A DNA stretch of 64,000 nucleotides from Acinetobacter phage ABPH49: the sequence record MH533020.1; one strand, given 5' to 3'. The notes under the pieces were generated by a model. That model had not been told where the DNA came from. It was given only the letters and a program-made list of their open reading frames with translations, and did not search any database. Positions 11,962-50,169 of this stretch are shown piece after piece. Each line of letters starts with the position of its first letter. Position 1 is the first letter of the stretch. The translations under genes and the position numbers were made by a program.

Positions 11962-12969
11962 ATGACTCTGCAAACTCAAATCTCTACTATCAAAGATGTA
12001 AACCGCGCTTATGGCTACACCGATTGTGGCTCTCTGGTCCGCAAACTGGGTAACAAGAAGCTGAATGCAGCTGACCGAAACATCGCGTATGACCTGAACT
12101 TTGACGACCTCCTGATGATGGGTTATAAACTCTCTGGCAACGGCACCTGTGACTATACCGGCTTACCTTTCTTCGGTACCGATAACGAAGCCTTCGCCCC
12201 GACCATCGAGCGTATCGACGACTGCAAGGGCTATGTCCGTGGCAATATCGCCATTGTTGGTGCCCGGGCAAACTATCTCAAAGATAAGTTTATCGACAAG
12301 AACCATCAGGACCCTTCCGATCTGGAGCTGAGCAAAGACGACATCAAGATCATCAACGCCATGCTGCCGCGTGTACACGCCAAGGGTTATCTGGAAGCCC
12401 TGAAGGGGAAATACATCCCTAACTTCGCAACCGAAGAAGAACTGGTAAAAATGCTGGACGAGAAGTGGTTCTTACCATCACTCCACCGCATCAACGACCA
12501 GCTGGAAGAGATCGCCAAAGGATCTGCTCCAGAGGATGGTAACATTTCCCTTCAGGGCGTGGGTGCGAAACTGGAAGTTCCTGAGGTGGATACCTCAGAA
12601 GAGGTTGATGCAGCACCTCTGGAGATCGACACCTCAACCCCGGCAGAAGATGAAGCAGAGAAGCCTTCTTTGCCAGATGATGTGGAGATTGCCGCGAGTT
12701 ACGCAAAACTCTGCCGGGCACTGGGTAAAGTGATGACTGTGAATATCACCTTCAGCCAGTACAAGAGTATCTACACCAACAAGCGTTGCCCGTTCACCGG
12801 TGAAGAGTTGACAGAGCGTTACCCTCTGATCCTCGACCGATCGTTGCCTCTGGAGTCTGGCAACGTGAAGATGACCAGCAACCGAGTTGGGCAGGCAATG
12901 AACGAATTTATCGACGCCACAGGCCTGTCTGTTTTCGAACTGGCTAAAAACCTGAAGAAGTTGGCGTAA
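11962..12969 (+). CDS. Hypothetical protein with two degenerate Endonuclease-VII/HNH-like repeats separated by an acidic linker (335 aa)
   Basis: Repeat 1: CDYTGLPFFG...PTIERIDDCKGYVRGNIAIVGARAN. Repeat 2: KRCPFTGEEL...LILDRSLPLESGNVKMTSNRVG. Pattern C..TG...(D/E)R.D...G.VRGN...V.AN, but the catalytic His pair is missing. Confidence 0.6.
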   Translation: MTLQTQISTIKDVNRAYGYTDCGSLVRKLGNKKLNAADRNIAYDLNFDDLLMMGYKLSGNGTCDYTGLPFFGTDNEAFAPTIERIDDCKGYVRGNIAIVGARANYLKDKFIDKNHQDPSDLELSKDDIKIINAMLPRVHAKGYLEALKGKYIPNFATEEELVKMLDEKWFLPSLHRINDQLEEIAKGSAPEDGNISLQGVGAKLEVPEVDTSEEVDAAPLEIDTSTPAEDEAEKPSLPDDVEIAASYAKLCRALGKVMTVNITFSQYKSIYTNKRCPFTGEELTERYPLILDRSLPLESGNVKMTSNRVGQAMNEFIDATGLSVFELAKNLKKLA

Positions 12970-23464: not shown

Positions 23465-23634
23465 TGGATGATGTTTACATCATCACTCATGCAGACTCCA
23501 CCGTTCTTTCCAAGGAAATCGTGCGGGTAAGTGACCTGTTTGGTTACCGATTCGTAGGTCCAGTCAGTACAGCAACCTGTATGAAGACTGGCAAGATCAT
23601 GTACACGGCAACACTGGTGCGAGGGAAAGAATGA
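23464..23634 (+). CDS. Small protein (56 aa, MDDVYIITHADSTVLSKEIVRV...)
   Basis: Not in the ORF track. TGATG overlap upstream and ATGA overlap with the primase-helicase start. Confidence 0.4.
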   Translation: MDDVYIITHADSTVLSKEIVRVSDLFGYRFVGPVSTATCMKTGKIMYTATLVRGKE

Positions 23635-25829
23635 GCGGTGGAATCTTTGGTGATGGCCTGCTAGGCGGGTACAAGTTGGGGTACAAAAACCCTAAAGCAT
23701 CGGCGACACGAAGCTCAGGGGGCGGTAGAATGGAAAAGTATCAGGAAACGTTGGAGGATATCCTGACATATCCTTCGAAGGCAATCCCAGAACGAGGAAT
23801 CTCCGAGGAGACAGCACGTCACTTCGGTATCCGGGTAAAGCTTTCAGCTAAGGATGGCCTGACGCACGAAGCACACTATTTCCCTTACTACATCGAGGGC
23901 AAGGTGTGTGGCTACAAAAAGCGTGATCTGACGATCCCTAAACTCCAGAACGGTCACTTCTCGACCATCGGGTATCAGGGCGTACAGTGCGAGCTGTTTG
24001 GTATGCACGCTGCCAACAAAACATCCAAACGGATGATCGTTATCACCGAAGGTGAGTATGACGCGGCGATTGCATGGCAGACGATCCGCGAGAACTACAA
24101 GAAAGACGGTAAGCCGGTAAAAATCAACCCGACGGTGGTTTCAATCACCAACGGTACCAGCAACGCAGTGCAGTGTTTGTCCCAAAAGGTCAACTACAAG
24201 CTGGTGAATAAGTTCGAGCAGGTGATCGTTGCATTCGATGGTGACAAAGCCACCGAGGCAGAGAAAGCCAAGGGCATCATGAAGGGTAAAGACGCCACGG
24301 CGGCGGTGTACTCGGTAATCCCGCAGATGAAAGTCTCGGACATCCCTGAGGACATGGACCCTTGTGACATGTACAACAAAGGCATGGCCGTCCAGCTGTT
24401 CTGGTCGTTCTTCAAGCCAAAAGAGTACGTCCCTGAGGGCTTCAGCCTGTACGAGCAGTTCCGCGACAAAGCGCATGAACTTCCAACGCTGGGCCGTCCG
24501 TGGCCTTGGCCGACGATGACCAAGAAGACTCTGGGCCGAAGACTCGGCGAGGGCTACTTCATTGGTGCAGGCGTCAAGATGGGTAAGTCGGAGTGGCTTA
24601 ACCAGTTGGTAGAGCACATCATTGTCACGGAGAGGACAAAGGTTGCGGTGTTCAAGTTCGAGGAAGAGAACAAGATCACCTGTCAGAAGGTTGCCGGGAA
24701 GCGGTACCACAAGGACTTTACAAACGCTGAGAAGGTGTTGTACCCTCAAGAAGATGGGTCTTACAAGGACATCTGGGGTAATGAGGTCCACCCGGGGATG
24801 CGTGGATACTTCACGCAGGAAGAGCTGGTTGAAGCAACGGATAGTGTTGGAGACAACATCATCTATTACAACAACTACGGTCGAGCAGTTTGGGACGAAG
24901 TTAAGGGCGCGATCCGACACGCCGTGTTGGTAGAGGGCTGTCTTGACATCTTCATCGACCCAATCACTCGTCTGGTGCAGGGTATGAGCGCCAGTGACGC
25001 GAACATCGAGCTTGAACGCTTCTCTGATGAAATCAGTAAGATGGCGAAAGAGTTGGGCTTCACGTACTACTGCTTCTGCCACCTGAACAAGCCAGAGAAC
25101 GGCAAGCCGCACGAATTCGGCGGTCAGGTTCAGTCTGCACAGTTCGCCGGTTCTCGTTCGATGATGCGTAACACGTACTACATGATTGGTATTGAGCGAT
25201 CGAAAGATCCTGAGTTGTCACTGAAGCAACGCAACACCTCTCATTTCGTTATCCTTGATGACCGTAAGCATGGTCGTTCTGGTAAATTCCCGGTCTTCTA
25301 CGACATTGATACCGGTGATTACCTCGAACCACCTGAAGGTTTCTTGGATTCTCAGTACGAGACGCTGAGGGAGTGGTATCTGGCCTATCCAGACTCCGAT
25401 CCTACCAAGCTGGCACCGCGTGATGCATCCGTGCCTCTGTCGCCGGAGCAAGAGGTGGTGACCGAGTCGGACCTGACGCAGGACGACATTCCGGCCATGC
25501 GTGATCAGGACAAAGAGCCTGTTTACCCGGAAGAGGAAGAGGACGAGCCAGAGTTCAATCAGGATGATGAACCAGTAGCTGAGGAAAAGACTGACACTCC
25601 GACGGAGGAACCAAAAACTCCAGAGGTTGTGAGTGAAGAACCAAAACCGGAACCACAGCAGGAAGCCCCTGTAGAGCCTGTGGCTGAACCGGTAGTCGAA
25701 CCAGTGCAACCGGAAGGTCGTGAAGAGATCTCTTCTCCTGCCGCCCCTGCGGAGCCGCCTGAACCACCTGTGGCGAGTTTCGGAGAGTGGCAAGAGGATG
25801 ACGACGACGATGACTCCTGCCCGTTCTAA
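23631..25829 (+). CDS. Bifunctional primase-helicase (TOPRIM primase + DnaB/gp4-like helicase) with an acidic Pro/Glu-rich C-terminal tail ending ...DDDDDDSCPF
   Basis: TOPRIM motifs MIVITEGEYDA and VAFDGDKATE. Walker A FIGAGVKMGKSEW and Walker B LVEGCLDIFIDP. C-terminal about 120 aa is a low-complexity acidic tail. GAGGG RBS. Confidence 0.9.
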   Translation: MSGGIFGDGLLGGYKLGYKNPKASATRSSGGGRMEKYQETLEDILTYPSKAIPERGISEETARHFGIRVKLSAKDGLTHEAHYFPYYIEGKVCGYKKRDLTIPKLQNGHFSTIGYQGVQCELFGMHAANKTSKRMIVITEGEYDAAIAWQTIRENYKKDGKPVKINPTVVSITNGTSNAVQCLSQKVNYKLVNKFEQVIVAFDGDKATEAEKAKGIMKGKDATAAVYSVIPQMKVSDIPEDMDPCDMYNKGMAVQLFWSFFKPKEYVPEGFSLYEQFRDKAHELPTLGRPWPWPTMTKKTLGRRLGEGYFIGAGVKMGKSEWLNQLVEHIIVTERTKVAVFKFEEENKITCQKVAGKRYHKDFTNAEKVLYPQEDGSYKDIWGNEVHPGMRGYFTQEELVEATDSVGDNIIYYNNYGRAVWDEVKGAIRHAVLVEGCLDIFIDPITRLVQGMSASDANIELERFSDEISKMAKELGFTYYCFCHLNKPENGKPHEFGGQVQSAQFAGSRSMMRNTYYMIGIERSKDPELSLKQRNTSHFVILDDRKHGRSGKFPVFYDIDTGDYLEPPEGFLDSQYETLREWYLAYPDSDPTKLAPRDASVPLSPEQEVVTESDLTQDDIPAMRDQDKEPVYPEEEEDEPEFNQDDEPVAEEKTDTPTEEPKTPEVVSEEPKPEPQQEAPVEPVAEPVVEPVQPEGREEISSPAAPAEPPEPPVASFGEWQEDDDDDDSCPF

Positions 25830-26277
25830 GGTGTGTAAGAAGTGCGGGGCTGAAAAGCCCCTCACTGACTTTTACCGCCACAGTGGAATGCTTGATGGGT
25901 TCTTAAACCACTGCAAGTCGTGCGTCAAGTCTCGGGTTAAGAATCACCGGGATGAGAACATAATGGAAGTTCGACAAAAAGATCAGGAAAGGGCTGCGAG
26001 AAGGGATATGGTTGCAGCTACCAAATCAGGAAAGAAGTATCGTCAGCGAAACCCAGAGAAATACAGGGCACACACGGCGGTAGGTAATGCAGTTAGGGAT
26101 GGAACCCTTATTAAACCTACCAATTGTGAGAGGTGTGGGTCTGGAGGCAGGATTACCGGACACCACCACTCTTACGCTGAAGAATTCCATCTTGACGTAC
26201 TGTGGTTATGCTATCCTTGCCACTCGGCAGAGCATAAAAGGTTAAACCTTCTGGGGATTGACCCAGACAATGGTTGA
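25798..26277 (+). CDS. HNH homing endonuclease (zinc-ribbon N-terminus + HNH), overlapping the primase-helicase 3' end
   Basis: CKKCGAEKPLTDFY...CKSC zinc ribbon. ERCGSGGRITGHHHSYAEEFHLDVLWLCYPCHSAEH, an HNH motif with CxxC...CxxCH. AGA/AGG-rich codon usage unlike its neighbours. Paralog of the 47840-48283 gene. Confidence 0.75.
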   Translation: MTTTMTPARSKVCKKCGAEKPLTDFYRHSGMLDGFLNHCKSCVKSRVKNHRDENIMEVRQKDQERAARRDMVAATKSGKKYRQRNPEKYRAHTAVGNAVRDGTLIKPTNCERCGSGGRITGHHHSYAEEFHLDVLWLCYPCHSAEHKRLNLLGIDPDNG

Positions 26278-27910: not shown

Positions 27911-30583
27911 ATGAAGGGGTTGTTCATTGGAGATCTGGAGGCCAACGGCCTGCTGGATGAATTGACTCACTTCCACTGTGTCCTGTTCAAAGAGTACGAG
28001 AAGGAGAACTACCACCTTTTCCTGAACAAGGCGCATGAGGAATTTGAGTCTGCATTGGCTTATGCCGAGGACAGGGCAAATGTGCCCGGCACCAACCTGA
28101 CCGTGTATGATTTCACGGAATTGAACACATGGTTTGTTACTTGTCCAAGATCAATCGCGATCCACAACCTGTTTGGTTACGACCTGCGGGCGATGAAGAT
28201 GTTGTACAACACAGAGTACGATATGTTCAAGGATCCGAAGTGCATGGGCACCATCAACGGGAAGCAGGTGAACCTGTTCGACACGCTGTCTATGTCGAGA
28301 ACCCTGTTCCCTGACCGACCGCTACCACGTGGTTGCCCTGACCAGATGAAAAACCCGGTCACCGGCAAGATGAAAAAGATGGGTCCTCACGGTCTGGAAG
28401 CTTGGGGTCTGCGAGTAGCCAACCTGAAGCCGTCGATCGAGGACTGGCGTGACCTCCCGCTGTGGAAATACGTTGACCGTGTTTGGGAAGACGTAACCAT
28501 CAACGAATTGGTGTGGACTGCACTGATCGCTGAGACACGGAGCGATAACACCCCGGAAGACAAGCGCTTCTATTACGACGAGGTCCCAGACCCGAAACGT
28601 ATGAAGCTGATCAACTGGAAAAACGCCCTGCGTCGTGGTATGTTGACCGACTACCTGATGGTTGAGCAGGAAATCCAAGGGGTCGTGTTCGATATCGAGA
28701 AGGCCTTGAAGCTTCGCGATGTGATCGACGCCCTGATGCGGGACATTGAGGAGGACGTTGAGCCGAAACTTCCGATGAAGGAAATGACGGCATCCGCCCG
28801 GCCAAACTTCCCGGCCAGCCCGTTCAAGGCTGATGGCACTATCTCGGGCAATGGTTGGAAATGGTTGGAACGTCTCGGGTATAAAGTCGATTGGGACGCA
28901 CTGAACTTCAAAGGCCCACCGGCCAAGGCATTCAAGGCTGATGGATCGCTGAGTGCATCAGGCATCAAGTATTGTAATGAGCACGGGATTGAAGATGAGG
29001 ATGTGATGCCTAACTTCATCCGTAATCAGAACAAGCGTGGTGAAAACCTGTCGCCGCTCCCGGCAGACCAGTTGGAAAAAGCACATCAGGATCTTCGTGA
29101 CAAGAAAGAACCTGACTTCCTGATCCCGATGCGAATTGGTAACCAAGACGACATCAAGAAATACCTGATCAGGGACGCTGGGTGGAAGCCTACGCTGTGG
29201 CGAACCAACGACGTAACCAAGGACCAGTTCAAGAAACAGCGTCCAGACAGTGACGTTGACGCGCTGGTTAAGCTGTACATCCAGAAACTGGACGAGTCGG
29301 AGTACCGAGATCTGATCCTGAACAACATTGGTTTCCCGTTGTCTAAGTTCAAGAACCCGGATCAGGCTTACAAGTTCTTCCGCAAGAAAGCGCGGCAGTT
29401 GCCTTCCTCGCCGAAGCTGAAGGATGAGCGTGGGGAGTTGTGTCCAAACCTCGAGAAGATCGATGGTGAGCTGGCAAAACAGATCGTTAAGTGGCTGTCT
29501 TCACGTAACCGCCGTTCTGTTCTTGACCCGCTGAAAGAGGACAAGGTTGATACCGGCTGGCTGAACCACCCACGACTGAAGATCGATGGTAAACTCCCGG
29601 CCAGATTCTCGGGGATTACCAACACCGGACGTCGTAAGCACACGATCGTAGCCAACGTTCCGAAGCCGGATCCGAAGGTTCTCTTCGGTTACGAGATGCG
29701 TGAGTTGTTTACGGTACCAAAAGGCCATTATCAGGTTGGTATCGACGGTTCTAACCTCGAGGGGATGATCGCCGCATGGGGCGCTTATGAGTTCGATGGT
29801 GGTGAATACCTGCGGATCATGGAGTCCGGTGACGCCCACGCCCGAAATGCCGAGGCATACTCGAAGGCAGCTGGGGTTACGGTAACACGTAACGGCGGTA
29901 AGAGCATCACCTACGGCATCATGTATGGTGCACAGGCCGCGAAGATTGCAGCGATGTTGGGCATATCCTTGGAGAAAGCACAGGCTGTAATCGACGCATT
30001 CTGGGACAGCAACATCGGGTTGAAAGGTCGTAAAGAGGCCCTCGAGAAGTTCTGGGAGTCGAATGGTAAGCGCTTCATCTACGGTCTGGACGGTCGTAAA
30101 ATCTACACCCGCTCCAAGCACAGCCTGTTGAACGCCTACCAGCAGAACGGCGGCGCAAGCCTGTTCGACCTTGTTGGTATCCTGCTGCACAACCAGCTGG
30201 TCAAGAAGGGTTGGTACGATCAGGGTGTTCGTCGGACGATTTACTATCACGATGAATACCAGCTTCAGGTTCCAAACAGCTTCAAAAAGGTGTGGGAGTT
30301 CGACACGCTGGAACAAGCAGATGCGTTCGTTGCAGACATGACGAGCAAGAAGCGTGTTCTGGATGGTCACGACTACAAGAAGCAGTGCAAGGATGAGAAC
30401 GGCGACAAGATCAAGGGTAAGTTCGACCCAATCTTGAACGCCAGAGGGAAGATCGAGATCGGGTACTGCCCGGTCGGCGAGATGGTTGTGAAGTGTGTTG
30501 AGCAAGCGGCACGCCTCATGAAGTCTCCAGTACACATCACCGGTGCATACCTGACGGGTATGAACTGGGGAGACTGCCACTGA
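27911..30583 (+). CDS. Family-A DNA polymerase with N-terminal 3'-5' exonuclease domain (890 aa)
   Basis: Exo I IGDLEANGL. Pol motif A GIDGSNLEGMIAA, motif B RNGGKSITYGIMYGAQAAK, motif C YYHDEYQLQV. AAGGAGAG RBS. Confidence 0.92.
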   Translation: MKGLFIGDLEANGLLDELTHFHCVLFKEYEKENYHLFLNKAHEEFESALAYAEDRANVPGTNLTVYDFTELNTWFVTCPRSIAIHNLFGYDLRAMKMLYNTEYDMFKDPKCMGTINGKQVNLFDTLSMSRTLFPDRPLPRGCPDQMKNPVTGKMKKMGPHGLEAWGLRVANLKPSIEDWRDLPLWKYVDRVWEDVTINELVWTALIAETRSDNTPEDKRFYYDEVPDPKRMKLINWKNALRRGMLTDYLMVEQEIQGVVFDIEKALKLRDVIDALMRDIEEDVEPKLPMKEMTASARPNFPASPFKADGTISGNGWKWLERLGYKVDWDALNFKGPPAKAFKADGSLSASGIKYCNEHGIEDEDVMPNFIRNQNKRGENLSPLPADQLEKAHQDLRDKKEPDFLIPMRIGNQDDIKKYLIRDAGWKPTLWRTNDVTKDQFKKQRPDSDVDALVKLYIQKLDESEYRDLILNNIGFPLSKFKNPDQAYKFFRKKARQLPSSPKLKDERGELCPNLEKIDGELAKQIVKWLSSRNRRSVLDPLKEDKVDTGWLNHPRLKIDGKLPARFSGITNTGRRKHTIVANVPKPDPKVLFGYEMRELFTVPKGHYQVGIDGSNLEGMIAAWGAYEFDGGEYLRIMESGDAHARNAEAYSKAAGVTVTRNGGKSITYGIMYGAQAAKIAAMLGISLEKAQAVIDAFWDSNIGLKGRKEALEKFWESNGKRFIYGLDGRKIYTRSKHSLLNAYQQNGGASLFDLVGILLHNQLVKKGWYDQGVRRTIYYHDEYQLQVPNSFKKVWEFDTLEQADAFVADMTSKKRVLDGHDYKKQCKDENGDKIKGKFDPILNARGKIEIGYCPVGEMVVKCVEQAARLMKSPVHITGAYLTGMNWGDCH

Positions 30584-40044: not shown

Positions 40045-40278
40045 ATGGCACAGAACTTGCACATCAACAACTATCAAGAGCGTGTAACCATGCTGGCGCG
40101 GGAGATCTTTATTGCCGCCGGGGGTAAAATGGTACCATCGGATGCCTTCATCCACGCTAAGCGGTTCATCGAAGAACAGCAGTGGCAAGAAGATAAGGCT
40201 CGTAAGGAGTCAGAAGAGGAGTTGGCACGCACGCTGGCCCGAGCAAACAAACCACACGGGGGTACGTTACGTGGCTAA
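40045..40278 (+). CDS. Hypothetical protein (77 aa)
   Basis: GGAGG RBS 5 nt before the ATG at 40045. Confidence 0.5.
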   Translation: MAQNLHINNYQERVTMLAREIFIAAGGKMVPSDAFIHAKRFIEEQQWQEDKARKESEEELARTLARANKPHGGTLRG

Positions 40279-40285
40279 GAATCAC

Positions 40286-40885
40286 ATGATGTTGGATATT
40301 GAGACTCTCGATCTCAAACCAACGGCTGCGGTATTGAGCATCGCGGCGACATTCTTCGATCCGCTTACCGGCGAGCTGGGTGAAAGCTTTGATAAGCAGA
40401 TCAACCTGAAGTCGTGCACGGACCTCGGCCTGACTGTTGATCCTTCCACAATTATGTGGTGGATGGAGCAGTCGAAGGAGGCTCAGGACGCCTTCAAAGG
40501 TAACAACAAGGCGCAGGCCTTGTCAGAGGTACTCATCAACTTCCACAACTGGGTAACTCTGCATAGAGGCTATCTGTTTTCAGATGGTGAGTCAGACCTC
40601 TGTGTATGGGGAAACGGCAAAGACTTCGATTGCGTAATCATCGAAAATGCCTACCTCGCTGCGGGGATTAAACGCCTGTGCCCTTGGAAATTCTGGGAAA
40701 CAATGGATGTTAGAACCCTTGTCCAGCTCGGGTCAATGGCTGGTGTTCCTGACTTCAAGAAAATGGCACTTGACAACTTCAAAGGTGTCAAGCACAATGC
40801 TCTCGATGACGTGCAGAACCAGATTAAGTACGTTGTCCAGTACACACAGGCGCTGGTAGGCAAAGGTGGTGTTGATGCTCAGTAA
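40286..40885 (+). CDS. DEDDh (DnaQ-like) 3'-5' exonuclease (199 aa)
   Basis: Exo I MMLDIETLD; DGESD (Exo II region); HNALDDV (Exo III with His). Start at the first ATG after the upstream stop. Confidence 0.75.
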   Translation: MMLDIETLDLKPTAAVLSIAATFFDPLTGELGESFDKQINLKSCTDLGLTVDPSTIMWWMEQSKEAQDAFKGNNKAQALSEVLINFHNWVTLHRGYLFSDGESDLCVWGNGKDFDCVIIENAYLAAGIKRLCPWKFWETMDVRTLVQLGSMAGVPDFKKMALDNFKGVKHNALDDVQNQIKYVVQYTQALVGKGGVDAQ

Positions 40886-46626: not shown

Positions 46627-47868
46627 ATGTCAGTAATTACAATGGTAACCGACCCCGCAACCGACAAACAGATCCCTAAAGCAAAAGGCATCATCAAGCG
46701 TATCAACATCAAACAGATCAACGCGGATGGTTCCCCACGCATCACCAACATCAACAAAGGTCCTAACGCCGGTAAGACCATCAAGGCTACCCACCGTTAT
46801 TCGATCCTGTTGGAAGTTGGCGAAGACGCGGTCTGGCTCTCGTTCGGCGAAGGTGAGGTTAAAAACCCGAAATACGCTGACCAGTTCCAAATCAAAGTCG
46901 GCGACCAGTACAAAAACCTTCTGGCGGGCATGGAAATATCGGTGTACCCGGTTCAAGAGAACAAGTGGATGAAGGACGGCGTTGAGCAGACTTCATGGCA
47001 GGCGAAGAAGAAGAACATCAATCTTCTGGATGAGTCCGGTGCTCAGCAACCGACTCAGCAACAGTCCTCCGGTGGCGCAGCTATCCCAGCTGGCGGAACC
47101 AAGATCTTCGGCGAAGTTATCTCGATCGATAACGGCGTTGCTCAGGTCAAGACCGAGAACGGTCTGGTTGGTCCGGTAGTTCTGGGCAGCAATACCGTAA
47201 CCGTTGGTGGCCGTCTGGCAGCGATCGTTGATGCAAGTGGTAACATCCTGTCCGGCTTCAAGGCTTATGGCCCAGCTGGTCAAGGTGGTGGCGCATCGGG
47301 TGGTAAGTCTGCGGGTTCCTTCAAGAAGGATAACTCAGGCGTTGAAACCGGCCATGCGATCAATGGCGCTCTGAACCTGAAGCGTAATGGTCACAAGCTT
47401 GAAGTTCTGGATCTGGCGAAGATCGTTCATGATACCACTGTTGCACTGAAGGCATCTGAACGTGCACGTGACGAGAACAAGGGTGTGTCTGATTACGATA
47501 TCGGCGCAGCTGTTGGTCACGCGGTGTTGAACGCAACCCGCGACGTGAAGCCACAAGATGGTCTGGCTGAAGCTCTGACTACCTACGCACAGGGTCTGTT
47601 GTCTCGAGTAGTACCAGAGATCACAGCCTACGTGAAGGCTGGTGGTGCAGAAGGTATCAAAGCTGCCGAAGCAGAAGCCGCAGCTAAGGCTAAAGCAGAG
47701 CAGGAGGCCGCAGCAGCTGCCGCTCAGCAAGCTTCACAGCCGGTGCAGCAACCTGTTCAGCAGCAACAGTCGATCGATATGTCACCACCACCAATGGATT
47801 TCGACGATGACATTCCGTTTGCTCCGATCGGGTTGCAGTATGCACGACATGCAATCCACGCCATCTAA
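46627..47868 (+). CDS. SSB-like protein: N-terminal OB-fold-like domain, Gly/Gln-rich linkers, Ala/Gln-rich tail carrying an internal E. coli-type SSB-Ct motif ...PPPMDFDDDIPF followed by 15 extra residues
   Basis: MDFDDDIPF is identical to the last nine residues of E. coli SSB. G/Q-rich low-complexity linkers are typical of SSBs. AAGGAGA RBS. Confidence 0.7.
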   Translation: MSVITMVTDPATDKQIPKAKGIIKRINIKQINADGSPRITNINKGPNAGKTIKATHRYSILLEVGEDAVWLSFGEGEVKNPKYADQFQIKVGDQYKNLLAGMEISVYPVQENKWMKDGVEQTSWQAKKKNINLLDESGAQQPTQQQSSGGAAIPAGGTKIFGEVISIDNGVAQVKTENGLVGPVVLGSNTVTVGGRLAAIVDASGNILSGFKAYGPAGQGGGASGGKSAGSFKKDNSGVETGHAINGALNLKRNGHKLEVLDLAKIVHDTTVALKASERARDENKGVSDYDIGAAVGHAVLNATRDVKPQDGLAEALTTYAQGLLSRVVPEITAYVKAGGAEGIKAAEAEAAAKAKAEQEAAAAAAQQASQPVQQPVQQQQSIDMSPPPMDFDDDIPFAPIGLQYARHAIHAI

Positions 47869-48283
47869 GGTGTGTTTCAAGTGTGGGGTGTTAAAGCCCC
47901 TCACTGATTTCTACAAACACCCTAAAATGTCCGACGGAAGAGTCAATAAGTGTAAGTGCTGCAACAAAAAGGATGTTTCTGATAACCGAAGTGATAAGCT
48001 TGAAAAGTATAGGGCTTATGACCGAGATCGTGGGAACAGACAAAGTGATACCTACATCGGGAAGTACAGGAAAGAGTTCCCCAAGAAATACAAGGCACAC
48101 AATGCGGTTAACAATGCGTTACGTGATGGCAGAATAACCAAAGGCCCGTGTGAAATATGCGGCGCTGAGAAGTCGGTAGGTCACCATGACGATTACGACA
48201 AACCGTTGGAGGTAAGGTGGTTGTGTCAAGGTCATCACAAACAGTGGCACGCAGAACATGGCGAAGCACTTAACGCCAGATAA
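47840..48283 (+). CDS. HNH homing endonuclease (paralog of the 25798-26277 gene), overlapping the SSB-like gene 3' end
   Basis: CFKCGVLKPLTDFY...CKCC zinc ribbon. EICGAEKSVGHHDDYDKPLEVRWLCQGHHKQWHAEH HNH motif. The 5' end is about 75% nucleotide-identical to the first HNH gene. Start codon uncertain. Confidence 0.7.
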   Translation: MHDMQSTPSKVCFKCGVLKPLTDFYKHPKMSDGRVNKCKCCNKKDVSDNRSDKLEKYRAYDRDRGNRQSDTYIGKYRKEFPKKYKAHNAVNNALRDGRITKGPCEICGAEKSVGHHDDYDKPLEVRWLCQGHHKQWHAEHGEALNAR

Positions 48284-48318
48284 TAAAAAAGGGAGCCGGA
48301 TGGCTCCCTTTTCTTTTA
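48284..48318. terminator. Bidirectional intrinsic terminator at the convergent junction (AAGGGAGCC-GGAT-GGCTCCCTT flanked by A6 and T-rich tracts)
   Basis: Perfect 9-bp stem with A-rich 5' and T-rich 3' flanks, so it works as a terminator on both strands. Lies between the HNH stop at 48283 and the tail-fiber stop at 48316. Confidence 0.75.
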
Positions 48319-50169
48319 CTTAGGTGTTGCTGGTGTTGCTGGTGCGTCTTTGAAGAGGCGAGTAACCCGAATCTGGAAGGATCCGGTGTTCTTGATGGCC
48401 TCGTTCACGTTGCTGTTTCCACCACCAACCAGTTCAGGTTTGTGAGCTGCACCGCCCTCCGCGACCTGAATGACAATCCAGTCACCTTGATCGGAACCAG
48501 AAGCAATCTTCTGACGCATCCCACGGACACCGAACATTTCCATCTTGCTCCCGTCTTTATCATCAGGTGCATAACCCCAACCAGACTCGTAAGAGTCAGT
48601 GGAGCTACCCAGTGGGTTGATGAAGACCTTCACGTCAATCGCGTATCCCGGGAACGGGTTCTGATACAACTTCCTGACTCCTGCATCCAACCCTACAGTT
48701 ACAGACAGATACTTACCAACCCCATCAGATCCTCCGGCCAATGCCGCCAGATCGATTGTTGCCTCTGTGGTCGGGGTGTCATTGTAGATCACCTTCCCGT
48801 CGTTGACCTTCAACTTCCCGGTAGTCGTTTGACCAACAACAGTTGCGTTTGTTCCGACGTTGACATATTCTGTGGCGGAAACAGACTTAGGACGAATGTC
48901 TTTATCATTGACATCTGCGGAGATACCTGTTGTGGTCCCAGTGACCTTCAGGTTTTGAACAGTCAAGGTGCCGCTGAATTGGCTGTCATTGGAGGCTACA
49001 ACCGACCTTGGCTTGATGTCCTTCCCGTCCACGTTGGCCGCTGGGAATGTGATTCCCTCAACTGTCCCGGTGAACTTGACGTTCCCGATCGTAGAGGTAC
49101 CAGTCACAGTCATTGTGTCGGTAACAGTCAGCTTTTTGGTAGCGATCTGATCAGTATCAACAGACGTCGGCTTCACGTCTTTACCATCGATGGATGCAGA
49201 AATACCCGAGGCAGTACCTGTCACCTGAATGTCCTTGAACACCGCCCGGCCATCGACTACCAGCTGTGGATCACTTGGTGGACGAGCGCCGTTACCAGTG
49301 ATGTGAACATAGTCCATATCCGCGTTCCCGTGGACCGTCAGGGCGTCTTTATCTGCAACCGGTGAAACTGCATTGCCTACAACTGCCGTGGCCGTGGTGG
49401 TGGCATCGGCTTTGATTCCTGACGTCTCGATGGTATGTGGACGAATGACTGTTCTCAGCTTGTCAGCGTATGCTGGGTCGAGGTAATCAAAATCTACCTT
49501 CCCGTCATCACCCATGATGTGCAGGGTGTTAAGCAACATACGGACAGTTGTTGCATCGATAGGGCCTCTGACGAACTTGGCATCTTCCGTAACCTCGAGG
49601 GTTCTGGTTGTTGTCTTGTTCCTAACAGTCAGGTTGTTGAATGTCCCAACGTTCTGATTCGGGTCACCCATTGCGGCTGTGATCGCCGCAACAACGAATG
49701 CCGTTGTAGCCAACGATGTGCTGTCGTCACCCTCCGCCGGTGTAGGGCCGCGCGGGTTTCCTTTGAACAGCGGGCTGATCAGAGGGGCATAAATGTCCGC
49801 GATGGAGGCCGTGTCAATAATCAGTCTCCAGTTCGGGTCATCATGCGGCTTCTCTTTCATCATTACCGGGGATACGGTAGTGGCACCCGGGGCGTACCAC
49901 CAAGAAGCACCCATGTTTGGCTCTGAGAAGGTGTACAACTGGTTGAAGACAGTGGTTGTCCTTCCCGGTGTCCATGCGAAAGGTGGCGTCTTGAAGTACA
50001 GGTTGTCCATCATCGCTTTGCGGATGGAAGGGATCACGCTCCCATCTTCAACTGTTACACCTTGGGTAGCCAGTCCGTTAACGATCCCGTGGACCCTTTC
50101 ACAATCGAGGATCAGTTGGTCTACCGCTGCGTAGAATTCAGGGTTGACGTTGACTCTTGGATCTGCCAC
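48316..50169 (-). CDS. Tail fiber / receptor-binding protein (617 aa; GTG start)
   Basis: Large Thr/Gly/Val-rich beta-repeat protein (repeated ...VTGT...KDI(K/R)P... units). GGAGGAG RBS; last gene of the leftward structural block. Confidence 0.7.
   Translation of the reverse strand: MADPRVNVNPEFYAAVDQLILDCERVHGIVNGLATQGVTVEDGSVIPSIRKAMMDNLYFKTPPFAWTPGRTTTVFNQLYTFSEPNMGASWWYAPGATTVSPVMMKEKPHDDPNWRLIIDTASIADIYAPLISPLFKGNPRGPTPAEGDDSTSLATTAFVVAAITAAMGDPNQNVGTFNNLTVRNKTTTRTLEVTEDAKFVRGPIDATTVRMLLNTLHIMGDDGKVDFDYLDPAYADKLRTVIRPHTIETSGIKADATTTATAVVGNAVSPVADKDALTVHGNADMDYVHITGNGARPPSDPQLVVDGRAVFKDIQVTGTASGISASIDGKDVKPTSVDTDQIATKKLTVTDTMTVTGTSTIGNVKFTGTVEGITFPAANVDGKDIKPRSVVASNDSQFSGTLTVQNLKVTGTTTGISADVNDKDIRPKSVSATEYVNVGTNATVVGQTTTGKLKVNDGKVIYNDTPTTEATIDLAALAGGSDGVGKYLSVTVGLDAGVRKLYQNPFPGYAIDVKVFINPLGSSTDSYESGWGYAPDDKDGSKMEMFGVRGMRQKIASGSDQGDWIVIQVAEGGAAHKPELVGGGNSNVNEAIKNTGSFQIRVTRLFKDAPATPATPK

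What the first reader, a model, noticed from the sequence alone, without database searches (positions are those of the whole stretch)
46627..47868. SSB-like protein whose E. coli-identical SSB-Ct motif (MDFDDDIPF) is internal, extended by 15 residues from sequence shared with an overlapping HNH gene
The last nine residues of E. coli SSB, MDFDDDIPF, occur verbatim at residues about 390-398. They follow G/Q-rich and A/Q-rich linkers typical of SSBs. That points to a phage SSB, or an SSB-interactome hijacker, tuned to an enterobacterial host.

The canonical SSB-Ct needs the free C-terminal Phe. Here the ORF runs on for 15 more codons (APIGLQYARHAIHAI), exactly where the second HNH endonuclease gene overlaps. 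Two readings fit:
- the HNH insertion remodelled the 3' end, masking or regulating the tail;
- the true stop lies earlier and there is a sequence error.
Either way it should change which host proteins the tail can recruit.
Basis: partly seen in the sequence, partly recalled or inferred. Interest (0 to 1): 0.8.

Follow-up and report, generated by a model that had tools for sequence, protein, structure and literature searches.

The report
Conserved cap on phage SSB tails
The 15 extra residues after the E. coli-type SSB tail are real and were not made by the neighbouring HNH gene: they are one copy of a conserved, optional peptide "cap" that follows this tail in about a quarter of phage SSB-type proteins, and I found no description of it.

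Summary
ORF 46627-47868 (413 aa) carries MDFDDDIPF at residues 390-398, then APIGLQYARHAIHAI. An HNH ORF overlaps its last 20-29 nt.

- Serratia phage Kashira (98% nt identity) has the same extension and no HNH gene.
- Phage ChuuTotoro has an HNH but its protein ends at DDDIPF.

The extension is a widespread module. Its consensus is A-P-[IV]-[GT]-L-[QPM]-[YF]-x-x-[HL]-x-[IL]-x-[ACV]-[ILM]-COOH. It occurs:
- in 26 of 120 homologues;
- in about 23% of viral contigs chosen only for an in-frame DFDDDIPF;
- on at least nine scaffolds, including classic phages HK75 and epsilon34;
- in prophage ssb genes of 297 of 5426 complete E. coli genomes;
- on the primase-helicases of related phages.

Codon analysis shows purifying selection on the peptide. 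Presence and absence switch between close relatives.

The protein is OB-fold and SSB-like. It is a homologue of Bas52_0087, the reported trigger of the DRT10 defence system.

The HNH belongs to a homing-endonuclease family that repeatedly lands at the 3' ends of genes encoding such tails. The window holds two copies.

How the cap works is inferred only. It removes the free Phe carboxylate that standard SSB-tail pockets use, so it probably re-targets or gates the tail.

The parts
46627..47868 (+). SSB-like replisome protein, 413 aa (PHROG 4477; family of Bas52_0087)
46627..47031 (+). N-terminal OB-like beta domain (residues 1-135)
47098..47274 (+). Second small beta domain (residues 158-216), flanked by Q-rich and G-rich linkers
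   Evidence: It is absent from the 311-aa Phapecoctavirus homologue.
47335..47637 (+). Helical domain (residues 237-337)
   Evidence: Four helices with pLDDT about 90. D235, which aligns with Bas52_0087 residue D252 in the BLASTP alignment, lies just upstream; Y334 aligns with Y351. D252V and Y351C are the DRT10 escape substitutions (bioRxiv 10.64898/2026.04.29.721553).
47794..47820 (+). Acidic tip MDFDDDIPF (residues 390-398), identical to the last nine residues of E. coli SSB
   Evidence: Invariant D391, D393, P397, F398. The E. coli sequence is quoted in PMC10238739.
47821..47865 (+). 15-residue cap APIGLQYARHAIHAI (residues 399-413)
   Evidence: 117 distinct related caps. Purifying selection in this frame. 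Predicted disordered, pLDDT 39-44.
47840..48283 (+). HNH homing endonuclease, copy 2 (PHROG 2340). Start is ATG 47840 or 47849. It overlaps the end of the cap.
   Evidence: Absent from Kashira at the same site. The same junction occurs in nieznany, PsgM04F and the GAP31 primase-helicase.
48287..48312 (+). Terminator hairpin ending the SSB-like/HNH unit, shared with the convergent tail-fibre gene 48316-50169 (-)
   Evidence: The same hairpin follows the gene directly in Kashira.
23631..25829 (+). DNA primase/helicase whose tail ends ...EDDDDDDSCPF (tip only, no cap)
   Evidence: PHROG 239, E 7e-153. Tail sequence. Relatives KpS8 and GAP31 end ...D[DN]DTPFAPIGLQYA[KN]HAIY[VA][IL].
25798..26277 (+). 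HNH homing endonuclease, copy 1 (PHROG 2340). It overlaps the primase/helicase tail. Start is ATG 25798 or 25810.

Best explanation
What it is
- The gene encodes the phage's SSB-like replication/recombination protein.
- Its disordered tail has two modules: a host-type acidic tip (MDFDDDIPF) and a 15-residue cap (APIGLQYARHAIHAI).
- The cap is an ancient, portable and optional peptide module. It follows ...[DE]x[IVT]PF tails on many unrelated phage ssDNA-binding scaffolds and on Vequintavirinae primase-helicases.
- It predates the HNH gene and does not depend on it.

The HNH
- The HNH is a free-standing homing endonuclease.
- Its family repeatedly inserts at the 3' end of tail-encoding genes. 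It lands either right after the cap's stop codon (as here) or after the ...PF codon. In phage Sf6 it lands exactly between tip and cap.
- Gain and loss of such endonucleases, plus recombination, is probably why the cap is present in some close relatives and absent in others.

How it works (inferred)
- The tail is a docking peptide, like the E. coli SSB C-terminal tail (SSB-Ct) and like the acidic ...DF tails of T7 gp2.5 and gp4.
- The cap takes away the free alpha-carboxylate of the Phe, which standard SSB-Ct pockets contact.
- It supplies its own conserved hydrophobic C-terminus. The last 7-8 residues sort by host order: ...RHAI[HY][AV][IL] in phages of Enterobacterales and ...P-x-[LI]-L-x-C-[MI] in Vibrio phages.
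- So the cap most likely re-targets or gates the tail towards a different partner, probably a host one, instead of the standard SSB interactome.

Shown versus inferred
- Shown: reality of the cap, its distribution, selection on it, its independence from the HNH, and the family assignment.
- Inferred: the docking function, the loss of standard binding, and the partner.
For: Independence from the HNH
- Kashira has the cap and no HNH; ChuuTotoro has an HNH and no cap.
- Only 2 of the 32 pattern-found viral contigs (L026, L033) have an adjacent HNH.

Distribution
- 26 of 120 homologues are capped.
- 27 of 120 viral contigs chosen only for an in-frame DFDDDIPF are capped.
- Capped proteins occur in HK75, mEp235, mEpX2, epsilon34, g341c, PVP-SE1, nieznany and many Vibrio phages.
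- 297 of 5426 complete E. coli genomes carry the capped lambdoid ssb allele.
- Only 8 hits were found in about 185,000 species genomes.
- At least nine scaffolds carry it.
- It sits on primase-helicase tails in KpS8 and GAP31.

Selection
- In the SSB frame pS is 0.75-0.80 against pN 0.25-0.40. In the other two frames pS is below pN.
- RHAIHAI is identical between the window and lambdoid phages, yet 6 of 7 third codon positions differ.
- Cap length is held at 14-16 residues.
- The tip is as conserved with the cap as without it: 73% against 64% exact DFDDDIPF.

Toggling
- At least 21 state changes on the tree of 118 family members.
- Primase-helicases that are 100% identical over the aligned C-terminal part up to the ...PF occur with and without the cap.

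HNH homing
- Two paralogous copies in the window, each abutting a tail.
- 6 of 9 relatives in IMG/VR lie 43-47 nt after a DFDDDIPF stop.
- An endonuclease directly follows the gene in 6 of 16 family loci.
- Sf6 gp26 ends ...PVTLPFPRHAIHAI, while its SSB gp27 ends ...DIPF.

Requirement for the Phe alpha-carboxylate: PMC10238739.

T7 parallel, where the tails of the SSB and the helicase-primase use one polymerase site: PMC12339929, PMC13402713, PMC5686142.

Host sorting: full-length matches to ...PALLMCM are all Vibrio phages; those to ...PRHAIHAI are all from phages of Enterobacterales.
Against: - No partner is identified and no binding was tested.
- AlphaFold2 leaves the cap disordered (pLDDT about 40), so there is no structural hint.
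- Host sorting of the cap's second half could come from gene flow among phages that share hosts.
- Some cap classes (...GRNF[IL]HC[IF], ...NNNLMHCI) occur in phages of both Enterobacterales and Vibrio.
- All four combinations of capped and uncapped SSB-like protein and primase-helicase exist. The cap is therefore dispensable, and any function is conditional.
- The equal conservation of the tip under the cap would also fit a cap that is removed after translation.
- HNH-less capped alleles in this family keep short remnants of the HNH 5' end (Kashira TAAGGT; BIS47 TAAGATGTGATTTTAA). The cap may sometimes travel with the endonuclease.
Confidence: 0.55

Rival explanations
1. One reading: insertion of the HNH gene replaced the original stop codon and created a read-through extension out of HNH-cassette sequence.
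For: The HNH ORF overlaps the last 20-29 nt of the gene. A 133-nt island of 81% nt identity spans tip, cap and the HNH 5' end in otherwise diverged phages.
Against: Kashira has the cap without an HNH. The cap occurs in hundreds of genes with unrelated downstream genes. The same HNH family follows uncapped tails. The peptide is under selection in the SSB frame, not the HNH frame.
Confidence: 0.03
2. One reading: a sequencing or assembly error hides a stop codon right after ...IPF.
For: Most orthologues end at IPF.
Against: An independent genome gives the same reading frame and the same length. The cap is a conserved motif, with 117 distinct versions found.
Confidence: 0.01
3. Selfish hitchhiker. 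The cap has no function for the protein. It spreads as part of the co-conversion tract of the homing endonuclease, or protects the allele from cleavage, and persists after the endonuclease is lost.
For: - Endonucleases are very frequent at this junction.
- Remnants of the HNH 5' end follow capped HNH-less alleles in Kashira and BIS47.
- There are at least 21 gains or losses in one family.
- All four cap combinations on the two replisome proteins exist.
Against: - Strong excess of synonymous over non-synonymous change in the SSB frame only.
- Identical 7-mer with 6 of 7 different codons.
- Fixed length and a conserved hydrophobic C-terminus.
- Deep diversity in lineages with no endonuclease nearby.
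Confidence: 0.13
4. Pro-peptide or degron. The cap is cut off to expose ...IPF-COOH at the right time, or it is a C-terminal degradation signal that limits the protein's lifetime.
For: The tip is as conserved with the cap as without it. Caps end in hydrophobic residues, for example ...YAL...HAI...CM. The cap is disordered.
Against: No shared protease is known across lambdoid, Vibrio and 145-kb phages. Nothing in the data shows cleavage. The strongly conserved first half (APIGLQY) is not explained by known C-terminal degrons.
Confidence: 0.13
5. Phage-internal docking as in T7. Tip plus cap binds the phage's own DNA polymerase or another phage replisome protein, not a host factor.
For: The same tail sits on the SSB-like protein and on the primase-helicase, next to a PolA-type polymerase gene. 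T7 gp2.5 and gp4 tails use one polymerase site (PMC12339929).
Against: Capped SSBs are common in the Erf-SSB-Abc2 recombination modules of lambdoid/P22-like phages, which to my knowledge encode no DNA polymerase; I did not check their gene content. Caps sit on at least nine scaffolds in unrelated phages, so one shared phage partner is unlikely.
Confidence: 0.15

Closest known systems
E. coli SSB C-terminal tip (SSB-Ct, MDFDDDIPF)
   Same: Identical nine residues after a disordered Q/G/P-rich linker. Aspartates and P-F are invariant across the family.
   Different: Here the Phe is internal. The alpha-carboxylate contacted by standard partner pockets (PMC10238739) is replaced by a peptide bond to a conserved 15-residue cap. 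Only 8 of about 185,000 species genomes held a capped tail; their genomic context was not examined.
Bas52_0087 of Escherichia phage RudolfGeigy, the reported trigger of the DRT10 defence system (bioRxiv 10.64898/2026.04.29.721553)
   Same: Same family: 30% identity over the full length, E 1e-39. Same domain order and same tip.
   Different: Bas52_0087 ends at ...SFDDDIPF without a cap. Whether capped members trigger DRT10 is unknown.
Acidic C-terminal tails of T7 gp2.5 (SSB) and gp4 (helicase-primase)
   Same: In this phage group both the SSB-like protein and the primase-helicase carry the same kind of acidic tail with an aromatic end. In T7 both tails dock on the polymerase (PMC12339929, PMC13402713).
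   Different: T7 tails end at the Phe. No conserved cap follows them. The tails here copy the host SSB tip.
Shigella phage Sf6 genes 27 (SSB) and 26 (endonuclease), compared with phage HK75 SSB
   Same: Same cap class (...PVTLPFPRHAIHAI) and the same HNH family, PHROG 2340.
   Different: In Sf6 the HNH sits between tip and cap. The SSB therefore ends at ...DIPF and the endonuclease carries the cap in frame. In the window the HNH sits after the cap.
Free-standing phage homing endonucleases (HNH type)
   Same: Presence/absence polymorphism between near-identical genomes at one precise site. Location beside conserved sequence of essential genes. Two paralogous copies at analogous sites in one genome.
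   Different: The recurrent target is the DNA that encodes a short docking peptide shared by different genes, not one particular gene. Cleavage specificity is untested.

Membership tests
Bacterial/phage SSB (Pfam PF00436-type OB-fold SSB) | Sequence match to the SSB family profile | tested here: not met
   No Pfam family at E<=1. No PDB sequence relative.
Bacterial/phage SSB (Pfam PF00436-type OB-fold SSB) | OB fold of the ssDNA-binding type | tested here: inconclusive
Bacterial/phage SSB (Pfam PF00436-type OB-fold SSB) | Acidic tip ending in a free C-terminal Phe | tested here: not met
   The tip is present and identical to that of E. coli, but it is followed by 15 residues.
Bacterial/phage SSB (Pfam PF00436-type OB-fold SSB) | Binds ssDNA | not testable with these tools
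   Needs a gel-shift or similar binding assay.
PHROG 4477 / Bas52_0087 family | Full-length profile or pairwise match | tested here: met
   PHROG 4477, E 1e-114, residues 1-398 against profile 1-393/393. Bas52_0087, E 1e-39.
Tail-cap module (defined here) | Starts directly after ...[IVT]PF, begins A-P-[IV]-[GT]-L-x-[YF], is 14-16 residues long and has a hydrophobic C-terminus | tested here: met
   APIGLQYARHAIHAI fits every position of the 15-mer consensus built from 56 distinct 15-mers.
HNH endonuclease (PHROG 2340) | Profile match and conserved Cys/His motifs | tested here: met
   E 5e-40. Invariant CxxC, CxxC, HH, and H133 and H137 in the alignment with Sf6 gp26 and others. No Pfam hit.
Homing endonuclease gene (mobile) | Present or absent at the same site in otherwise near-identical genomes | tested here: met
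   The window compared with Kashira: about 400 nt present or absent between TAAGGT and GATAATAAAAAAGGGAGCC.
Homing endonuclease gene (mobile) | Cleaves the endonuclease-free allele near the insertion site | not testable with these tools
   Needs in vitro cleavage or a co-infection homing assay.
Group I intron-encoded endonuclease | Ribozyme core around the endonuclease ORF | tested here: not met
   No intron family in the Sf6 or ChuuTotoro loci at E<=1.
T7-type replisome tail system | The SSB and the helicase-primase both carry acidic tails with an aromatic end | tested here: met
   The SSB-like protein ends ...DFDDDIPF plus cap. The primase/helicase ends ...DDDDDDSCPF.
T7-type replisome tail system | The tails bind the phage DNA polymerase | not testable with these tools
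   Needs a binding assay or complex prediction with the polymerase encoded at 27911-30583.

The most novel reading that the evidence does not exclude
The cap is a host-tuned switch on the SSB tail. It turns a peptide that recruits host genome-maintenance enzymes (ExoI/SbcB, RecQ, PriA, chi) into one that no longer recruits them, blocks them, or engages a different host factor. This would protect phage ssDNA ends or avoid tail-dependent sensing by defence systems such as DRT10. Homing endonucleases that land at the tip/cap junction flip the switch on and off in phage populations.
Probability: 0.2. Interest if true: 0.85.

Novelty: new variant of a known kind. Interest (0 to 1): 0.68.

Why it matters
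- In the SSB partner structures summarised in PMC10238739, the pocket contacts both the side chain and the alpha-carboxylate of the C-terminal Phe.
- Here a large natural class of phage SSB-type proteins, and some primase-helicases, keep that tip perfectly conserved yet bury it under a conserved cap. The class includes textbook lambdoid/P22-like phages and about 5% of complete E. coli genomes.
- The hypothesis is cheap to test: peptide binding with and without the cap, and cap-deletion phages. Such tests could reveal a new docking mode or a new host target.
- It bears on recombineering, because capped SSBs sit between Erf and Abc2 in the lambdoid recombination modules seen here.
- It bears on how defence systems that respond to phage SSBs, such as DRT10, are triggered or evaded.
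- The DNA that encodes a short docking peptide is also a shared landing site for homing endonucleases in different genes.

Tried and rejected
- Pfam scan of both proteins: no family.
- PDB sequence search: nothing meaningful.
- Full-text searches for the motif strings (APIGLQY, RHAIHAI, DDDIPFAP and others): no relevant paper.
- Protein-database search with the cap alone: only 26 candidates, uninformative. The search with tip plus cap returned mostly short fragments.
- Group I intron around the Sf6 and ChuuTotoro HNH genes: none.
- Self-docking of the cap on the protein: AlphaFold2 leaves it disordered.
- Beta-clamp-binding motif: considered and rejected by inspection, because the Gln of GLQY is not conserved (Q, P or M).
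- Cap as the ribosome-binding site and start codon of the HNH: in the window, nieznany and L033 the HNH ATG lies in the TAT-G of Q-Y-[GA]. But most caps use TAC, or belong to the TLPFP class with no ATG, and synonymous sites are free.
- Neighbour-gene enrichment around capped versus uncapped SSB genes: too confounded by relatedness to name a partner. The counts were:
  - DnaQ-like exonuclease, PHROG 255: 10 versus 0;
  - RdgC-like: 15 versus 2;
  - Rad52-like annealing protein: 18 versus 6.
- Escape from Retron-Eco8: unlikely, because T7 SSB activates that system without its C-tail (PMC13402713).

Full report
**1. The observation**

ORF 46627-47868 (+) encodes 413 residues.
- Residues 390-398 read MDFDDDIPF, the last nine residues of E. 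coli SSB as quoted in PMC10238739.
- Fifteen further residues, APIGLQYARHAIHAI, and a TAA stop follow.
- A second ORF in another frame encodes an HNH-type endonuclease (PHROG 2340, E 5e-40). It starts at ATG 47840 or 47849 and overlaps the last 29 or 20 nt.
- The only terminator-like hairpin lies after the HNH, at 48287-48312.

The description is correct.

**2. Whether the HNH made the extension**

The window is 98% identical in DNA to Serratia phage vB_SmaM-Kashira.
- Kashira encodes the same 413-aa protein, ending APVGLQYARHAIFAI. It has no HNH gene: after TAAGGT only 8 nt (AAATGCGG) separate the stop from the GATAATAAAAAAGGGAGCC motif and terminator hairpin that follow the HNH in the window.
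- The next relative, ChuuTotoro, has an HNH of the same family, but its protein stops right after DDDIPF.
- So the extension exists without the HNH, and the HNH exists without the extension.
- A sequencing error is excluded by the independent genome.

**3. The extension is a widespread module**

I call the extension a cap.

*Within the protein family*
- 26 of 120 homologues continue past ...PF with the same motif, even at 30-40% overall identity.

*Across viral contigs*
- A degenerate DNA pattern for DDIPFAPIGLQY found 32 viral contigs. In most of them the host protein is a canonical OB-fold SSB, and the downstream genes are unrelated to one another: a methylase, RdgC-like genes and others.
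- In a sample of 120 viral contigs chosen only for an in-frame DFDDDIPF, 31 read on past the Phe. Of these, 27 have this motif, most often APVTLPFPRHAIHAI.

*In named phages and bacterial genomes*
- Cultured phages with the cap include HK75, mEp235, mEpX2, epsilon34, g341c, CP-1639, PVP-SE1, SSE121, nieznany, ZCKP1, many Vibrio phages and Aeromonas phages.
- 297 of 5426 complete E. coli genomes carry the lambdoid capped ssb allele, annotated simply as ssb.
- Only 8 hits appeared among about 185,000 species genomes; I did not examine their context.

*Scaffolds and consensus*
- A tail profile searched against 1.84 billion representative proteins placed the tip plus cap on at least nine unrelated scaffolds.
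- I collected 117 distinct caps.
- They are 14-16 residues long, with the consensus A-P-[IV]-[GT]-L-[QPM]-[YF]-[PGA]-[RN]-H-A-I-[HY]-[ACV]-[IL] or A-P-I-G-L-Q-Y-[PRK]-x-[LI]-L-x-[CA]-[MI].
- Full-text searches for the motif strings found nothing relevant.

**4. The peptide is under selection**

- For the cap codons, the proportion of synonymous differences is saturated (0.75-0.80). The non-synonymous proportion is 0.25-0.40.
- When the same bases are read in the other two frames, the relation reverses.
- The heptapeptide RHAIHAI is identical in the window and in lambdoid phages, yet 6 of 7 third codon positions differ.
- The tip is no less conserved when capped: 73% exact DFDDDIPF against 64% when uncapped.

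**5. The cap toggles**

- On a tree of 118 family members, the cap state changes at least 21 times.
- The same is seen on a second replisome protein. The primase-helicases of KpS8 and GAP31 end ...DDDTPFAPIGLQYAKHAIYVI and ...DNDTPFAPIGLQYANHAIYAL.
- Relatives that are 100% identical over the aligned C-terminal part up to the Phe stop at ...DDDTPF.
- The window's own primase-helicase (23631-25829) ends ...EDDDDDDSCPF without a cap.
- All four combinations of capped and uncapped SSB-like protein and helicase occur among genomes.

**6. What the protein is**

- PHROG 4477 matches at E 1e-114, and its profile ends at residue 398.
- The AlphaFold2 model (pLDDT 79.5) has these parts:
  - a beta domain, residues 1-135;
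  - a second beta domain, 158-216;
  - a helical domain, 237-337;
  - a long helix, 340-368;
  - a disordered tail.
- The protein aligns over its full length with Bas52_0087 (30% identity, E 1e-39).
- A 2026 preprint describes Bas52_0087 as SSB-like with an FDDDIPF tip, and as required to trigger the DRT10 defence system, with a link to host ExoI (bioRxiv 10.64898/2026.04.29.721553). Bas52_0087 has no cap.

**7. What the HNH is**

- The window has two PHROG 2340 copies: one after the primase-helicase tail and one after the SSB-like cap.
- In both, the upstream stop codon TAA lies inside the HNH codons TCT-AAG. In both, an ATG lies exactly 20 nt before the end of that stop.
- The same junction occurs in nieznany, PsgM04F and the GAP31 primase-helicase.
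- 6 of 9 relatives in viral contigs lie 43-47 nt after a DFDDDIPF stop.
- In a family-based sample, 6 of 16 loci have an endonuclease right after the gene. These belong to at least three types.
- In Sf6 the HNH (gp26) sits exactly between tip and cap. SSB gp27 ends ...DSDIPF, and gp26 ends ...PDEE-PVTLPFPRHAIHAI in frame. HK75 has the intact capped SSB in the same Erf-SSB-Abc2 module.
- No group I intron is present.
- The HNH family therefore homes to the DNA that encodes these tails. It can leave a gene capped (as in the window) or uncapped (as in Sf6).

**8. Mechanism**

- Standard SSB partners hold the side chain and the alpha-carboxylate of the C-terminal Phe (PMC10238739). A peptide bond at that position should weaken that mode of binding.
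- The cap is not a random block. It has its own conserved sequence, a fixed distance to its own hydrophobic C-terminus, and a second half that sorts by host order.
- It sits on many scaffolds in unrelated phages, which argues for a host partner rather than a phage one.
- Its presence on both the SSB-like protein and the primase-helicase recalls T7. There the acidic tails of gp2.5 and gp4 use one site on the polymerase (PMC12339929, PMC13402713, PMC5686142).
- My best reading is that the cap re-targets or gates a docking tail. This is inference. No partner is known, and AlphaFold2 gives no hint.
- Rival readings remain possible: a hitchhiker of the endonuclease, a pro-peptide or degron, or a phage-internal docking peptide. 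They are listed with the tests that would separate them.

**9. Verdict**

The protein family and the tip are known. The conserved, optional cap and its link with endonuclease homing at tail-coding DNA did not turn up in any full-text search I ran.

Noticed in passing
window 23631-25829 and 25798-26277: The primase/helicase ends in an acidic tail, ...EDDDDDDSCPF. A second PHROG 2340 HNH ORF overlaps it. That ORF's ATG codons arise from the GAT-GAC (Asp-Asp) codons of the tail read in the +1 frame.
   Followed up: yes
window 25842-25866 and 47881-47905; also L174 2711-2736 and the L194 HNH 5' end: A stable hairpin (GUG.GGGGC...GCCCC.CAC) lies in the first codons of the PHROG 2340 HNH ORFs (C-G-x-x-K-P-L). 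Free energy is -15 to -18.5 kcal/mol, with z -3.8 to -5.5. Stem pairs change in a compensatory way in GAP31 and L194 (GGGGUU/AACCCC). It may control HNH expression.
   Followed up: partly
L171 (Shigella phage Sf6) 1069-2031: The HNH endonuclease gp26 carries the cap PVTLPFPRHAIHAI in frame at its own C-terminus, because it is inserted between the tip and cap of the ssb gene. The GenBank note already remarks on 14 residues shared with an E. coli SSB.
   Followed up: yes
window 40112-40885: This is a DnaQ-like 3'-5' exonuclease (PHROG 255). The same PHROG lies directly downstream of capped ssb genes in E. coli prophages and in a Glaciecola genome locus (L040). The count was 10 capped loci against 0 uncapped, but the loci are related to one another.
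   Followed up: partly
window 47787-47919 compared with ZCKP1, nieznany and PsgM04F: A 133-nt island of about 81% nt identity spans the tip, the cap and the HNH 5' end in phages whose SSB-like genes are otherwise too diverged for megablast. This could be a co-conversion tract or a recognition site.
   Followed up: partly
L193 (Klebsiella phage BIS47-type contig), after the gene's stop codon; L001 4479-4490: Capped alleles without an HNH keep short remnants of the HNH 5' end (TAAGATGTGATTTTAA in L193; TAAGGT in Kashira). This suggests past deletion of the HNH.
   Followed up: partly
L203 552-1484 (nieznany gp212) and L204 522-1475 (PsgM04F): The Phapecoctavirus-type homologues are 311-318 aa and lack the second beta domain. 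They keep the tip, the cap (APIGLQYGRNFLHCF) and the overlapping HNH.
   Followed up: partly
window 11962-12969: A third HNH endonuclease of a different family (PHROG 3118) lies elsewhere in the window.
   Followed up: no
L178 2326-2796: In primase-helicase alleles that stop at ...DDDTPF, a 156-aa gene of unknown function (PHROG 8569) sits right after the stop, where capped alleles have the cap. In L180 an HNH of PHROG 953 occupies that place.
   Followed up: partly
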